A stretch of DNA of 64,000 nt from Eubacteriales bacterium (GTDB taxonomy: Bacteria; Bacillota; Clostridia; Lachnospirales; Lachnospiraceae), in the NCBI GenBank assembly GCA_030526005.1, contig JAUNDP010000010.1, positions 8,004 to 72,003 on the forward strand, read 5' to 3'. The notes beneath the pieces are model-generated. The model saw nothing but the letters and a program-made list of their open reading frames with translations. It made no database searches and had not been told where the DNA came from. This document shows, piece after piece, positions 32,137 through 36,852 of the stretch (positions are counted from its first letter, which is position 1; each line of letters begins with the position of its first letter). The translations under genes were made by a program, and so were the position numbers.

Positions 32137-35100
32137 ATGGGCGAGACGGCAGAGAAAATGATTCGGTTTTATGAGAGAGTAAATACAGGCAGCATTATGA
32201 TTTTAGTACTCAGTCTTCTGGGGGCTTTTTTTTTCTTCATACAGGGAAAATTGTGGACAACAGTAAAGACATTGAGAAATGAAAGAAAGGGAAAAAGAAA
32301 AAAGGGAGAGAAAAAATGGATCGTATATGGCATTGCTGTACTAGCGATTTGGGGAGGAATGACTGGATGGATGGACACAGAAGCAGCAGAGAGAATAGAT
32401 CAGCAGATACAGATGAGTGGAAGTGTGGAAGAGGAAGAATGGTTTTCAGGAGCAGATACCTATAAAGTATGGATTCGCATAGCAGGAAAGAAACCAGATA
32501 AACTCTGCCTTTTCTGGAATGAAGGAGGGACAGAACGGACAAAGGAGTTATTTGATCCGGTATCTGAAGAAGAAGGGTATGAATATAAAATAGAATTTGA
32601 GGCAGAAGAGCTGGATACTTATCTGAATGTTCAGATCGTGACAGGAGGCCAAATTACCGGGACAGGACAGAGACAAATCAGAATTGATAAAAGACAGCCT
32701 GAGGATGATGTGATGGTTCTGTACAGAGGAGGCGATATTTTTATTCAGAAAAAGCTGGAAGACGCGCATGAAACATTATATTTTCAAAAACAGGCAGAAA
32801 TTGTGATGTGTGTAAGAGATACCGGGGCGGGGACAGACAGCGTTTCTTTTGAGATTGCCGGAAATAAGGTGACCGGAGAAAAGAGTGGCGAAATACAGAT
32901 AAATGAAAAGATTTATGAGACGTATGCCATATGCTTATATGAGCCGCTGGAAGGCAATATTTCCAATGTATTAATTACAGACAGAGCAGATAACATTCGC
33001 CTGATGGAATCCGCAGATCCGACTCAGATTGTTCTGGATGGAAAAGCGCCGGTCTGTCTCCCGTTTCTTTTTCAGCCGTCAGCAGAAAAAGAAGGAATGT
33101 ATTTTTTTTGCGACAGCGCAAAAATTCAAATACAGATTTCAGAGTCACATTGGAAGAAAGAAGGGATTCCGATTGTGGTAAATGATAAAGAATATATACT
33201 GGGAGCGGAAAGTTGGATTGAGACAGAAGAAGATCTCTATGAAAATATACTTTTTTTACAGGAAGAGGGGAGGTACACGATACAGATCGGTCCCATTTCT
33301 GATAAATCGGGAAATGAGATGGAAGCAACTCAGAGCAAAACATTTATTGTGGATAGAACTGCTCCGAAAGCCAGAAAAATAGAATTGGAGGCAGATGGAA
33401 TATTTGACGAGGAACGATGGTATACAAAAACAGGGCAGGTAAAAGGAAGCATCGTTATAGAAGAAGCATGGTTTGAGCCTGAAAAGATACAGCTGTATTT
33501 TTTAAATCAGGAGACAGGAGAAAAAAATTGGCCGGAAGTGAACTGGCATCATACAAAAGAGACTGCAGCAGGAGAATTTTATATTCCGTCTATGTCAGAA
33601 GGAACGTATCAGCTGATTGTTCAGGGGACGGATCTCTCAGGAAATAAAATGATTTTTGAGGAAACACAAGAGAATATCATCAGCAGTCAGCTTATCACGG
33701 TGGATCATACAAGACCAAAGTTCTCTTCCTTTGTAACCAAGGAGAAAAAATGGGAGAGAAACGGAGTCCTTTATTTTCAGGATTGTGTTCAGGTCAGCTT
33801 TTCGATTGAAGAAAATGAGAAATTAAAAAATTGCAGCATATTTCAAAAAAGAGAAGACGGAAGCTGGAGAGAAATTGAAATACAATGGGAAAAAGAAAAA
33901 AACAAGGGAGAGTTTCAACTGGATAAAACAGAAGAAAAGACACAGATTTTGATTCAGGCAGAAGATATGGCAGGAAACCGAATGGCAGCGGAAGAAAATA
34001 TGAAAGATGTCTTTGAAACAGAACAAGGAATCCTGTCAAAAGAAATCATAATGGACTGGACAAGTCCAAAAGTACAAGTAATGTATGAGACAGGAGATGG
34101 GCAAAAAATCAGCCTGAACCAGTGGAACTATGAAAAAGAGAGAAAAAAGGAAAATATAAAAGTGTTGTTTTTTGTACAGGAGAAAAATTTTGATGCGGAG
34201 CAATGGAAGATTGAGATTACTGCGTGTGACAGCCAGGGAAAAAAGCAAGATTCAAAAATTGACAGTGTGCGAAAGGCAAATGAGCGCTGTGCCAAAGCGA
34301 TGGATGGACAAAAGAAAAATGATGGGTGGAAAAAGGGTACCTGGTATGAGACAGAGATTTTATTGGAAGAGGAGGCAAATTATCGGATAAAAATTCAGAT
34401 GGAAGATTTTTCAGGAAATCACGCTGTTTTTGAAGAAAGTGGAGAAGAAAAAGGAGAGCTGGCATATGAAGCTTTTTTTACGATTGACTATACAGCGCCT
34501 GTCTTTCAAAGAGAAAAGTGTGTCTGGAGAAAAGCTGACGGTGAAATTTTGAGAAAATATCATTATCAAGATTACGCCTATTTCAGTGACCAGCCCGTAA
34601 ATATAGAGATTCCGGTGTATGATGGTATCAGTGGCGTGGAAACGGTACGGTATCATTGCGGAAAAGAGGAAAATTGGATATGGACGGAAGCAAAGATGAT
34701 AAAAGAAACGGAGGATTATGCGGAGGCAATCATCTCGATCCCAGTTGATTTTCAAAAAGAAATCTGGATTCAGACGGTAGATAAAAATGGTGTTATAAGC
34801 AAAGAAGAAAAAATGGACAGGATTTTGATGCAGAATATGGCGCAGACAGAATGTTCTCTCACAGTGACAGAAGAGACAGGCGCTTATAAAGAAAAAGAAG
34901 GAGTGAAATATTATGCAGAAGCAATTTCTGTTTGCATTCACGCTCAGGATAGGACAAGCGGAATAAAAAACATCCGATGTTTTGTGGATGGAGAATTGTG
35001 GTTTGAGGAAGATCATACAAAGAAGAAAGAGAGAATATTTTCTGTTCAGAAAAAAGGAACAGTGACAAAGCCACAATGTCAGAAAATCAAGGTAAAGGCA

Positions 35101-36852: not shown

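What the first reader, a model, noticed from the sequence alone, without database searches (positions are those of the whole stretch)
32137..36852. 1571-aa Ig-module protein tethered to the membrane at both ends, a possible EsaA/YueB-like cell-envelope component
Seen: there are two N-terminal TM helices flanking a strongly basic loop and one C-terminal TM helix followed by KNRQKRHCE. This places about 1450 aa outside the cell, tethered at both ends. That region is built from at least 10 modules, each ending in D-x-(A/S)-G-N and followed by (I/V)-D-x-(T/S)-x-P. The gene is the last one in the T7SS-like block.

Established: EsaA/YueB is a large membrane protein with TM segments at both ends and an elongated extracellular domain that spans the wall.

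Inference: this protein may fill that role with a completely different beta-sandwich repeat architecture. Alternatively it is simply an adhesin that is co-located.
Basis: partly seen in the sequence, partly recalled or inferred. Interest (0 to 1): 0.65.

Follow-up and report, generated by a model that had tools for sequence, protein, structure and literature searches.

The report
Ig-repeat surface protein of T7SS
This gene encodes a long, membrane-anchored string of about 13 immunoglobulin-like domains, of a type (TsxI) predicted in 2024 to belong to variant type VII secretion systems; across gut Lachnospiraceae its constant neighbour is a membrane Ser/Thr kinase rather than the secretion ATPase, so it may be a surface sensor.

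Summary
The ORF, its hydrophobic segments and its repeat motifs are real. It has 9 exact D-x-[AS]-G-N motifs where shuffles give 0.02. AlphaFold2 models show about 13 beta-sandwich modules.

The protein is not a chance-located adhesin. It belongs to a family found in at least 280 species, mostly Lachnospiraceae, with a collinear conserved C-terminal ~1000 aa and a C-terminal TM anchor. This matches the "TsxI" component (TsdI/TseI/TsjI) that Garrett, Higginson & Palmer (2024) predicted for T7SSd/e/j.

My surveys refine this:
- An orthologous membrane Ser/Thr kinase (TsxD) lies directly upstream in 58 of 66 species loci, usually with a PP2C phosphatase and a small TM protein (TsxH).
- EssC lies within ~10 kb in only 11 of 46 loci, but in at least five different gene orders.

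The "first TM helix plus basic loop" is a fused TsxH-like module. The second hydrophobic segment keeps a signal-peptidase site, so tethering at both ends is doubtful.

The window's ATPase is TsfC-like and sits next to a TadZ-like ATPase. T7SSf was described as having neither a kinase nor an Ig protein.

Best reading: kinase-coupled surface sensor or recognition arm gating the T7SS. Rival: structural conduit.

The parts
32137..36852 (+). tsxI-like gene: 1571-aa Ig-repeat envelope protein, here made as a fusion with a TsxH-like N-terminal TM module
   Evidence: ORF. Big_x and OmpL47-type domains. Family survey. AF2 models. RBS GGGGAG 7 nt upstream of the ATG.
32185..32316 (+). TM1 (residues 17-36) plus a K/R-rich cytoplasmic loop (37-60): the fused TsxH-like module
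   Evidence: Hydropathy. An HMM of TsxH N-termini scores 16.1 bits on the window protein, 19.8 and 23.5 bits on orthologues, and 32-71 bits on other fusion proteins. 2000 shuffles gave a maximum of 15.3 and a next-best of 8.4.
32317..32388 (+). Second hydrophobic segment (residues 61-79) with a candidate signal-peptidase site after ...DTEA (residue 84): probably the original TsxI signal peptide
   Evidence: Sequence comparison with other H-I fusions and with plain-signal-peptide homologues. Cleavage is inferred, not shown.
32398..36741 (+). Ectodomain: about 13 tandem Ig-like beta-sandwich modules (residues ~88-1535). Many modules end in D-x-(A/S)-G-N ... h-D-x-(T/S)-x-P.
   Evidence: Motif statistics. 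AF2 secondary structure and pLDDT. Foldseek matches only generic Ig/FN3/MG arrays.
33772..36849 (+). Family-conserved, collinear membrane-proximal core (residues 546-1571), including the FSVNRFGSVYTL motif (~1317-1328). Conservation peaks at residues 1200-1450.
   Evidence: BLASTP collinear alignments with E 1e-80 to 1e-104. Alignment A1. Conservation profile.
36772..36849 (+). C-terminal TM anchor (residues 1546-1565) and basic cytoplasmic tail KNRQKRHCE
   Evidence: Hydropathy. Conserved across the family. Helix in the AF2 model.
30408..32075 (+). tsxD-like membrane Ser/Thr kinase (555 aa): kinase domain, one TM (~278-296) and a C-terminal extracytoplasmic domain of ~255 aa that matches no Pfam family. 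It is the conserved partner of the Ig gene.
   Evidence: Pkinase E 1.5e-50. All catalytic motifs present. An orthologue, including its C-terminal domain, lies upstream of the Ig gene in 58 of 66 species loci.
20316..21074 (+). tsxJ-like gene: DUF6382 + FHA protein, no TM. First gene of the T7SS operon.
   Evidence: Pfam. FHA keeps SRRH and NGT but has GK in place of GR. A 12/12 consensus promoter lies at 20256-20284.
21096..22106 (+). tsxV-like gene: ParA/MinD/TadZ-like ATPase (336 aa)
   Evidence: No Pfam hit itself. 25% identical to the L088 homologue, which hits AAA_31, CbiA and ParA. Same position as TsfV in T7SSf.
22099..22380 (+). tsxB: YukD/EsaB-like ubiquitin-fold protein
   Evidence: The orthologue in L001 carries PF08817. 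Similar to the L088 YukD.
22383..26702 (+). tsxC: EssC-type FtsK/SpoIIIE ATPase (1439 aa), TsfC-like
   Evidence: TIGR03928 at 779 bits. The N-terminal 620 aa is closest to the published TsfC, 95 bits against 73 or less. FHA motifs follow the TsfC pattern: no GR, no SxxH, NG kept.
26642..26992 (+). tsxA: WXG100 protein
   Evidence: PF06013 E 3e-16.
26989..30275 (+). Probable effector module: three small proteins with no TM segment (137, 103 and 120 aa), a lipoprotein (234 aa) and a 495-aa Mbeg1/DUF2974 lipase-like protein
   Evidence: Pfam and NCBIfam. Sequences and the lipobox-like LLFGC. 'Reverse lipase' substrates are reported at T7SSe loci.

Best explanation
The gene encodes a TsxI-type envelope protein of a variant type VII secretion system.

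Anatomy:
- A Sec-type signal inserts it in the membrane.
- About 13 Ig-like modules lie outside the cell. At roughly 4 nm per module they could extend about 50 nm, enough to cross and project beyond a Gram-positive wall (inference).
- A single C-terminal TM helix with a short basic tail anchors it.
- In this lineage the small membrane protein TsxH has been fused in front of the signal peptide. That produces the extra N-terminal TM helix and the basic loop.

Proposed function: it is the extracellular arm of a threonine-phosphorylation switch.
- Its conserved membrane-proximal modules and TM associate with the adjacent membrane kinase TsxD, and with TsxH.
- Its variable distal modules meet the outside world: a neighbouring cell, a wall state or another surface cue.
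- Kinase activity is then read by FHA-domain proteins, here TsxJ, the first gene of the operon. These control assembly or firing of the EssC/TsxC machine that exports the WXG100 protein and the neighbouring lipase-like effector.

Shown: the anatomy, family membership and gene linkage. Inferred: the physical TsxI-TsxD-TsxH contact, signal-peptide cleavage, the direction of signalling, and the effect on secretion.
For: Identity:
- Architecture and domains.
- The family has at least 280 species-level members sharing a collinear C-terminal ~1000 aa and a TM anchor.
- It matches the published description of TsdI/TseI/TsjI: a large protein with a Sec signal, a C-terminal TM helix and Ig-like domains, next to kinase TsxD and the small TM protein TsxH.
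- A family member from Ectobacillus ponti (L078, E 2e-77 to the window protein) is WP_254759306.1. That is 13 accession numbers from WP_254759293.1, which the paper lists as a TseC.

Linkage to the kinase:
- An orthologous STK lies within 2.5 kb upstream on the same strand in 58 of 66 species loci, and just downstream in 3 more.
- A PP2C is present in 42 of these loci, and a separate TsxH-like ORF in 33.
- TsxH and TsxI are fused in several divergent lineages as well as the window clade.
- Stand-alone kinase-Ig modules sit between housekeeping genes.
- One genome carries two such modules (L060 and L083).

Linkage to the T7SS:
- EssC lies inside 11 of 46 well-flanked loci. I estimate about 0.6% by chance for one T7SS locus in a genome of about 3.5 Mb (an estimate, not computed).
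- At least five gene orders occur.

Sensor-like features:
- Distal modules vary while membrane-proximal modules are conserved: 6-12% against 35-43% identity to distant homologues, and 52-60% against 73-82% among orthologues.
- The kinase has all catalytic motifs.
- The TsxJ FHA domain keeps the SxxH and NG motifs.

Precedent: in Schaalia, the Ig-repeat surface filament EsrA activates a kinase/phosphatase pair, which leads to threonine phosphorylation of an FHA protein and then to Esx (T7SS) activation. 40% of Esr pathways are adjacent to esx genes (PMC13622651).
Against: - There is no experimental datum for any TsxI.
- The window locus has no PP2C phosphatase.
- The window EssC FHA domain lacks the GR and SxxH phosphothreonine-binding motifs. 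Any phospho-signal would have to pass through TsxJ, whose GR motif is GK.
- The cytoplasmic tail of the Ig protein is only about 6 residues. Signalling would need lateral TM or ectodomain contacts, which I did not test.
- The distal modules are plain Ig-like sandwiches. No recognisable ligand-binding head such as the EsrA beta-propeller is present.
- None of the Esr-specific parts (MoxR, vWA, transglutaminase) was seen among the T7SS-block gene products scanned.
- Kinase adjacency is also compatible with the kinase being a structural EssB-like subunit, and TsxI a structural partner, as the 2024 paper suggested.
Confidence: 0.45

Rival explanations
1. Structural envelope component, the reading of the first reader and of Garrett et al. 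2024. TsxI, alone or as an oligomer, forms a wall-spanning stalk or conduit functionally analogous to EsaA/YueB. It guides substrates from the EssC channel through the peptidoglycan. The kinase TsxD is the structural counterpart of the pseudokinase EssB.
For: - The paper reports TsxI at T7SSd, T7SSe and T7SSj loci; TsdI is one of only five core T7SSd components.
- The gene abuts EssC directly in some loci (L031, L073, L079).
- The length of about 13 Ig modules suffices to cross the wall (inference).
- TsxD has the same topology as EssB.
- The window clade keeps the gene in every relative.
Against: - There is no homology or fold similarity to EsaA.
- A single-file Ig string offers no obvious channel.
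- About three quarters of well-flanked loci have no EssC within 6-10 kb. Some sit between housekeeping genes.
- One genome has two kinase-Ig modules.
- Some J-V-B-C-type T7SS loci have no Ig gene within the available flanks (L089, L098, L124).
- The kinase is catalytically intact and is usually paired with a phosphatase.
Confidence: 0.25
2. Target-recognition or adhesion device. The filament binds a neighbouring (prey) cell and holds it against the T7SS for contact-dependent toxin delivery. It does not signal and does not form part of the channel.
For: - The distal end is variable and the stalk conserved.
- The family resembles bacterial Ig-repeat adhesins in fold (SiiE, PrgB and ice-binding adhesin hits).
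- Garrett et al. mention 'target recognition'.
- An antibacterial-type lipase effector is encoded next door.
Against: - This does not explain the near-obligatory coupling to a kinase, a phosphatase and TsxH, nor the TsxH-TsxI fusions.
- No recognisable lectin or adhesin head domain is present.
Confidence: 0.15
3. An ordinary surface or adhesin protein that merely happens to lie beside the T7SS genes in this genome.
For: - Generic Big_x domains are shared with many adhesins.
- Most family loci lack an adjacent EssC.
Against: - EssC adjacency recurs in at least five gene orders, in lineages only 24-31% identical.
- I estimate roughly 40-fold enrichment over chance (the chance rate is an estimate).
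- Synteny with the kinase, PP2C and TsxH is conserved.
- The published T7SSd/e/j neighbourhood analyses reach the same conclusion.
Confidence: 0.07

Closest known systems
TsdI / TseI / TsjI ('TsxI') of T7SSd, T7SSe and T7SSj (Garrett, Higginson & Palmer 2024, Microlife 5:uqae013; bioinformatic prediction only)
   Same: - Large protein (1654 aa in Olsenella uli) with a Sec signal, several Ig-like domains and a C-terminal TM helix.
- Encoded with the EssC-type ATPase, WXG100, a YukD-like protein, the membrane Ser/Thr kinase TsxD, the small TM protein TsxH and the DUF6382-FHA protein TsxJ.
- NCBI names family members 'Ig-like domain repeat protein'.
- A homologue of the window protein appears to be the Ig protein of an Ectobacillus ponti locus that the paper lists as T7SSe.
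   Different: - Here the ATPase is closest to TsfC, and a TsfV-like TadZ/ParA ATPase is present. T7SSf was described as having no kinase and no I component.
- No PP2C (TsxF) is in the window.
- TsxH is fused to the N-terminus of TsxI, giving two N-terminal hydrophobic segments.
- The organism is a Lachnospiraceae. I found no Lachnospiraceae-related names (searched 'Lachno', Robinsoniella, Blautia, Butyrivibrio, Faecalimonas, Ruminococcus, Clostridiales) in the parts of the paper's supplement that were available.
EsaA / YueB of T7SSb (Staphylococcus aureus, Bacillus subtilis)
   Same: A large membrane protein with an elongated extracytoplasmic domain, encoded in a T7SS locus, and proposed to span the wall. 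This is a functional analogy proposed in the literature.
   Different: - No sequence relationship: there is no EsaA or YhgE/Pip hit.
- The fold is all-beta Ig-like, and no EsaA or YueB entry appears among the top 50 structural matches of either model.
- EsaA is predicted to have 1 N-terminal and 4-5 C-terminal TM helices. This protein has 1 C-terminal TM, plus a signal peptide and a fused TM at the N-terminus.
EsrA of the Esr threat-sensing pathway (Schaalia odontolytica; Wang et al. 2026 preprint, PMC13622651)
   Same: - A secreted surface filament of repeated Ig-like domains.
- Encoded with a Ser/Thr kinase, a phosphatase and an FHA-domain output protein.
- 40% of Esr pathways are adjacent to esx (T7SS) genes.
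- The distal part is the most variable.
- It controls T7SS transcriptionally or post-translationally.
   Different: - EsrA has a beta-propeller head. It is attached through a transglutaminase rather than a TM helix, and it works with MoxR and vWA proteins. None of these were found among the products scanned here.
- The Esr pathway is reported to be confined to Actinomycetes.
- No homology to the window protein was tested or is claimed.
Threonine-phosphorylation control of type VI secretion (a membrane-bound kinase plus an FHA-domain protein; Agrobacterium tumefaciens)
   Same: A membrane kinase and an FHA protein gate a secretion machine post-translationally. The analogy is drawn in PMC11217815.
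   Different: The secretion system, envelope type and components are unrelated. No Ig-repeat filament is involved (my own knowledge, not checked here).
Generic bacterial Ig-like repeat adhesins and S-layer proteins (Big_x families; SiiE, PrgB, SbsC, Sap)
   Same: Tandem beta-sandwich modules, with D-x-A-G-N / T-x-P-type module ends picked up by the Big_13 and Big_3_x models.
   Different: - This protein has a C-terminal TM anchor. I noted no LPXTG, SLH or choline-binding anchor.
- It has an ordered, non-interchangeable series of modules conserved over ~1000 aa.
- It has fixed synteny with a kinase module and recurrent T7SS linkage.

Membership tests
TsxI (TsdI/TseI/TsjI) component of variant T7SS | Large protein with an N-terminal Sec-type signal and a single C-terminal TM helix | tested here: met
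   1571 aa. C-terminal TM at 1546-1565 with a basic tail. The second N-terminal hydrophobic segment has signal-peptide features. An extra upstream TM is present, explained as a TsxH fusion. InterPro called TseI itself '2 TMH (NT and CT)'.
TsxI (TsdI/TseI/TsjI) component of variant T7SS | Several Ig-like domains along its length | tested here: met
   Big_13, Big_3_3, Big_3_4 and OmpL47-type domains. AF2 models show about 13 beta-sandwiches with pLDDT 81-84. Foldseek matches Ig arrays.
TsxI (TsdI/TseI/TsjI) component of variant T7SS | Encoded in a cluster with the TsxC ATPase, TsxA WXG100 and TsxB, and beside a membrane Ser/Thr kinase TsxD | tested here: met
   Window genes at 20316-32075. The same holds in relatives and, in other gene orders, in distant lineages.
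TsxI (TsdI/TseI/TsjI) component of variant T7SS | Sequence homology to a TsxI of a published T7SSd/e/j locus | tested here: inconclusive
   The reference TsxI sequences could not be retrieved. Indirect link: the window protein matches the Ectobacillus ponti Ig protein WP_254759306.1 (tblastn E 2e-77, residues 277-1568). The paper's TseC list contains WP_254759293.1, 13 accession numbers away. That the two lie in the same locus is inferred from accession proximality, not shown.
EsaA / YueB (T7SSb) | Sequence membership in the EsaA family (T7SS_EsaA / YhgE-Pip-type domain) | tested here: not met
   No such hit in Pfam or NCBIfam at E<=0.01. No PDB sequence match.
EsaA / YueB (T7SSb) | Polytopic topology (1 N-terminal plus 4-5 C-terminal TM helices) and the EsaA ectodomain fold | tested here: not met
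   Only one C-terminal TM. The ectodomain is all-beta, and no EsaA or YueB entry appears among the top 50 Foldseek matches of either model. The EsaA topology is as tabulated.
EsaA / YueB (T7SSb) | Required for T7 secretion; acts as a wall-spanning element | not testable with these tools
   Needs genetics and imaging.
T7SSf (system level: A, B, C, F, J with 2 TM, V; no kinase) | TsfC-like ATPase with FHA motifs GR-/SxxH-/NG+, plus a TadZ-like TsfV | tested here: met
   The EssC N-terminal 620 aa is closest to the published TsfC: 95 bits against 73 for EssC, 64 for TsjC and 49 for TseC. The reference sequences were OCR-derived. Motif pattern. ParA/TadZ-like ATPase at 21096.
T7SSf (system level: A, B, C, F, J with 2 TM, V; no kinase) | PPM phosphatase TsfF present, TsfJ membrane-anchored, no kinase and no Ig protein | tested here: not met
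   No PP2C in the 64-kb window. TsxJ has no TM. A kinase and an Ig protein are present. The locus therefore matches none of the eight published subtypes exactly.
Esr threat-sensing pathway (EsrA-G) | EsrA with a beta-propeller head, plus MoxR ATPase, vWA protein and transglutaminase | tested here: not met
   None of these domains was found in the Ig protein or among the T7SS-block gene products scanned. The resemblance is functional and architectural only.

The most novel reading that the evidence does not exclude
TsxI, together with TsxD (kinase), TsxH and usually a PP2C, forms an autonomous, widespread surface-sensing module of gut Lachnospiraceae and some Bacilli.
- The Ig filament detects a neighbouring cell or an envelope insult.
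- It switches on the kinase.
- Through FHA proteins (TsxJ, Trypsin-FHA proteins, or the FHA domains of some EssC) this licenses firing of a T7SS that may be encoded next door or elsewhere.

This would be a Bacillota counterpart, built from different parts, of the actinobacterial Esr pathway. The repeated TsxH-TsxI fusions would mark the signalling interface.
Probability: 0.4. Interest if true: 0.7.

Novelty: new member of a known kind. Interest (0 to 1): 0.42.

Why it matters
Variant type VII secretion systems (T7SSc-j) have so far been defined only by gene neighbourhoods, and none of their specific parts has been tested. The Ig-repeat TsxI protein is the largest of these parts and the only one predicted to be surface-exposed.

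Knowing whether it is a channel, a grappling hook or a sensor determines how these systems should be understood in abundant gut commensals (Lachnospiraceae), where they probably deliver antibacterial toxins.

The comparative pattern found here turns the question into testable predictions: near-obligate coupling to a kinase module, facultative adjacency to the ATPase, a variable tip on a conserved stalk, and recurrent fusion with TsxH. The locus also shows that a T7SSf-like core can carry a kinase and an Ig protein, which blurs the published subtype boundaries.

Tried and rejected
- PDB sequence search with the whole protein found no match. Foldseek of both AF2 models gave only generic Ig, MG and FN3 arrays with overall TM-scores mostly at or below 0.3, so there was no informative structural relative.
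- Direct accession link to the paper's TsxI proteins: the four RefSeq accessions I recovered for family members were not in the supplement text available to me, part of which was cut when stored. Only the indirect TseC / Ig-protein accession proximity for Ectobacillus ponti was obtained.
- Expression evidence: only DNA gut-metagenome runs hold this sequence and no RNA runs, so I could not test co-transcription.
- Whole-genome co-occurrence of the kinase-Ig module with EssC, for species where the two are not adjacent, could not be run.
- Search of the window for a separate TsxH, or for its conserved C-terminal motif (h-h-x-h-H-T-x-E-x-I), found nothing. A PP2C, a Trypsin-FHA protein and a second kinase were also absent from the window.
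- I considered whether TM1 was an artefact of an over-extended ORF. I rejected this because the N-terminal sequence is conserved in orthologues and matches the TsxH profile.
- I considered a prepilin-type (class III) signal in TsxH or TsxI, because of the neighbouring A24 peptidase genes. No conserved G-1 cleavage motif was visible, so I did not pursue it.
- Subtype assignment of EssC used OCR-derived partial reference sequences from the paper's Fig. S2. The scores are low (22-28% identity), so the TsfC-like assignment is indicative only.

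
Full report
**1. The observation**

- The ORF at 32137..36852 (+) is real and encodes 1571 aa.
- Hydropathy shows a strong N-terminal hydrophobic segment (residues ~17-36) and a weaker second one (~61-79). Between them is a loop with 11 Lys/Arg. A C-terminal hydrophobic segment (~1546-1565) is followed by KNRQKRHCE.
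- There are nine exact D-x-[AS]-G-N motifs and ten [ILVM]-D-x-x-x-P motifs. Residue shuffles give 0.02 and 0.4 on average. Seven of the motifs are paired, which no shuffle reproduced. The period is about 105-117 aa.
- Pfam and NCBIfam report Big_13, Big_3_3, Big_3_4, Y_Y_Y and the OmpL47-type barrel domain.
- AlphaFold2 models of residues 546-1571 (28-sequence alignment, mean pLDDT 84.2) and 1-576 (pLDDT 80.9) are strings of beta-sandwiches from about residue 90 to about 1535. A long C-terminal helix follows. Residues 1-87 are low-confidence helices. I count about 13 modules.
- Foldseek against the PDB returns only generic multi-Ig, FN3 and MG arrays: titin, LILRB3, complement C5, PrgB, SbsC/Sap S-layer proteins and SiiE. 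No EsaA or YueB entry is among the top 50 matches of either model. A sequence search of the PDB finds nothing.

**2. The neighbourhood**

On the + strand the order is as follows:

| Coordinates | Product |
|---|---|
| 20316 | DUF6382 + FHA protein |
| 21096 | 336-aa ParA/TadZ-like ATPase |
| 22099 | YukD-like protein |
| 22383 | EssC (TIGR03928, 779 bits) |
| 26642 | WXG100 protein |
| 26989-27998 | three small proteins without a TM segment |
| 28014 | lipoprotein |
| 28788 | 495-aa Mbeg1/DUF2974 lipase-like protein |
| 30408 | 555-aa Hanks-type Ser/Thr kinase with all catalytic motifs, one TM and a C-terminal ectodomain |
| 32137 | the Ig protein |

- A 12/12 consensus promoter lies at 20256-20284. 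No terminator-like site lies between the kinase gene and the Ig gene. A good RBS precedes the ATG at 32137.
- The block has lower G+C than its flanks. It sits between cobalamin genes (13779-19653) and hemC with further haem genes (36979 onward).

**3. The family**

- Only three close homologues exist in the 5.8-billion-protein set (63-80% identity). The rest are 21-28% identical.
- Those distant proteins align collinearly with residues ~546-1571 at E 1e-80 to 1e-104. They end in the same TM anchor with a basic tail. This is therefore an ordered, conserved stalk and not a chance repeat match.
- A scan of one genome per GTDB species found 280 relatives. They are mostly Lachnospiraceae, with a few Bacilli (Paucisalibacillus, Ectobacillus). 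The window's nearest relatives are labelled Robinsoniella or Clostridiales.
- Conservation rises from the N-terminus to residues 1200-1450. Identity to distant homologues goes from 6-12% to 35-43%. The same, milder gradient holds among orthologues.

**4. What it is linked to**

  - Of 66 loci with at least 2.5 kb upstream, 58 have an orthologous kinase immediately upstream on the same strand. The match includes the kinase's C-terminal domain at about 30% identity. Three more loci have the kinase just downstream.
  - A PP2C phosphatase is present in 42 of the 66, and a small single-TM protein lies between kinase and Ig gene in 33.
  - Of 46 loci with at least 6 kb upstream and 8 kb downstream, 11 contain EssC.
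- Stand-alone kinase-Ig modules lie between housekeeping genes (L005, L008).
- One genome (Lachnoclostridium sp. An131) has two modules (L060, L083).
- T7SS adjacency is nevertheless far above chance and occurs in different arrangements:
  - T7SS upstream (window clade);
  - kinase-H-Ig-(second TPR kinase)-(TPR protein)-J-V-B-C downstream (L063, L088 and, with the upstream part cut off, L057);
  - Ig abutting EssC (L031, L073, L079);
  - in an independent EssC-centred metagenome scan, Ig-J-V-B-C (L093, L094, L100), Ig-F-D-FHA-B-C (L091, L095, L097), D-Ig-A-C-J (L121) and Ig-D-TPR-C (L128, L139).
- Some J-V-B-C loci have no Ig gene within the available flanks (L089, L098, L124).

**5. The N-terminal hairpin**

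- The small proteins between the kinase and Ig genes form a family. Each has a short N-terminus ('I-x-L-Y-H-x-L-F'), a TM helix, 'L-D-I-R...Y-L-T-G-R-x-A-K-K', a low-complexity stretch that I take to be disordered, and often a C-terminal motif 'F-x-I-x-K...I-H-T-x-E-x-I'.
- This fits the published TsxH description: a single TM helix and a short unstructured cytoplasmic region.
- An HMM of the N-terminal part hits the N-termini of Ig proteins in loci where my typing found no separate small gene (32-71 bits). It also hits the window clade: 23.5, 19.8 and 16.1 bits for P0004, P0003 and the window protein. The best of 2000 composition-matched shuffles scored 15.3 and the next 8.4.
- TM1 plus the basic loop is therefore a fused TsxH-like module.
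- All such fusion proteins keep an AxA-type signal-peptidase site after the second hydrophobic segment (window...GWMDTEA|AERID). The mature protein is thus probably anchored only at its C-terminus. 'Tethered at both ends' is not established.

**6. Comparison with what is known**

- Garrett, Higginson & Palmer (2024; PMC11217815) defined T7SSc-j by neighbourhood analysis.
  - T7SSd, e and j contain TsxI. [quoted passage not shown]
  - The same systems contain TsxD (membrane kinase), TsxH, TsxF (PPM phosphatase) and TsxJ (DUF6382-FHA).
I found no experimental follow-up in the literature searched.
- A family member, the Ectobacillus ponti protein WP_254759306.1, lies 13 accession numbers from WP_254759293.1, which the paper lists as a TseC. 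This ties the family to TseI indirectly.
- The window's own system matches no published subtype exactly.
  - Its EssC is closest to TsfC (OCR-derived references, low scores). It shows the TsfC FHA-motif pattern and is preceded by a TsfV-like ATPase.
  - T7SSf, however, was described without a kinase or an I component.
  - No PP2C is present in the window.

**7. Mechanism**

- A 2026 preprint (PMC13622651) shows experimentally that in Schaalia an Ig-repeat surface filament, EsrA, senses epibionts. It acts through a kinase/phosphatase pair and threonine phosphorylation of an FHA protein to switch on the Esx system. 40% of Esr pathways lie beside esx genes, and the distal sensor domain is the most variable part.
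- The pattern I see for TsxI is parallel, although the parts differ: a TM anchor, no beta-propeller, and no MoxR, vWA or transglutaminase.
  - It is almost always coupled to a kinase module.
  - It is adjacent to the T7SS in about a quarter of loci.
  - It has a variable tip and a conserved stalk.
  - It occurs in more than one copy in one genome.
  - It is recurrently fused with a small TM partner.
- I therefore favour a kinase-coupled sensor or recognition arm (0.45) over a structural conduit (0.25), a pure targeting adhesin (0.15) or a coincidental adhesin (0.07).
- Weak points for the window locus are the missing phosphatase, the degenerate FHA motifs of its EssC, and the very short cytoplasmic tail of the Ig protein.

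**8. Verdict**

The protein is a new member of the TsxI kind, which has been described but never tested. It has two local peculiarities: the TsxH fusion, and a T7SSf-like core that carries a kinase and an Ig protein. Interest is moderate. The function of TsxI remains open, and the comparative data sharpen it into testable alternatives.

Noticed in passing
window 19723-36852: The whole T7SS block, plus a divergently oriented HTH regulator gene (19723-20085, minus strand), is wedged between cobalamin-biosynthesis genes (cbiA/cobD/cobQ/cbiC-type, 13779-19653) and hemC/cobA-hemD/hemB/hemL (36979 onward). Its G+C is lower than its flanks (0.37-0.40 against 0.43-0.45). It looks like an island. A perfect TTGACA-17-TATAAT promoter lies at 20256-20284.
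   Followed up: partly
window 26989-30275: A 495-aa Mbeg1/DUF2974 (lipase-like) protein is preceded by three small proteins without a TM segment (137, 103 and 120 aa; one has a weak ESAT-6-family hit) and a 234-aa lipoprotein (signal ...LLFGC). This resembles the 'reverse lipase' T7SS substrates with Lap partners and immunity proteins described for TslA and noted at T7SSe loci. A strong hairpin with a T-run lies at 27958-27988.
   Followed up: partly
L088:5230-6060 and 33 other loci (e.g. L021:4920-5273, L064:6688-7407): TsxH-like small membrane proteins end in a conserved motif F-x-I-x-K-x-x-M-x-I-H-T-x-E-x-I (23 of 34 ORFs). The invariant Thr next to acidic residues could be a phospho-acceptor or an FHA-docking site. 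The window's fused version lacks this motif, and the motif occurs nowhere else in the window.
   Followed up: partly
L014:4835-5299, L005:7865-8311 and about 17 further loci: A short prepilin-peptidase-like (Peptidase_A24, ~150 aa) gene often directly precedes the PP2C/kinase-Ig module. Together with the TadZ-like ATPase in the T7SS core, this hints at a link to Tad-type machinery. No class III signal was evident in TsxH or TsxI.
   Followed up: no
L088:1057-2739 (also L007, L038, L049-L051, L060, L062, L063, L078): [quoted passage not shown] By domain order this looks like another transmembrane signalling protein in the same cassette, but I did not check it for a TM segment. It is absent from the window.
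   Followed up: no
L088:13045-16683 (also L042, L057, L062, L063, L081): Between the Ig gene and the T7SS core, some lineages carry a second Ser/Thr kinase with TPR repeats (like the published TsjD) and a TPR/CarboxypepD_reg-domain protein.
   Followed up: no
window 22383-23000 (EssC N-terminus) and 20316-21074: The FHA region of the window's EssC has lost the GR and SxxH phosphothreonine-binding motifs and keeps only NG. EssC proteins of the TseC/TsiC-like loci (L031, L042, L062, L070, L072, L073) keep SxxH and NG. The separate FHA protein TsxJ keeps SRRH and NGT, with GK in place of GR.
   Followed up: partly
L060 and L083 (both Lachnoclostridium sp. An131): One genome carries two kinase-TsxH-Ig modules whose Ig proteins differ greatly in length (2460 and 1454 aa). 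Neither has an EssC within the flanks.
   Followed up: no
L124, L126, L145, L148-L150, L153, L163: In several metagenome contigs the EssC reading frame is split into two to four ORFs. These are either pseudogenes or assembly and sequencing errors.
   Followed up: no
window 44001-46000 and 48001-50000: There is a low-G+C stretch (0.354) and a local reversal of GC and AT skew (-0.02 and -0.04, against about +0.25 elsewhere), suggesting a differently oriented or foreign segment. I did not examine it.
   Followed up: no
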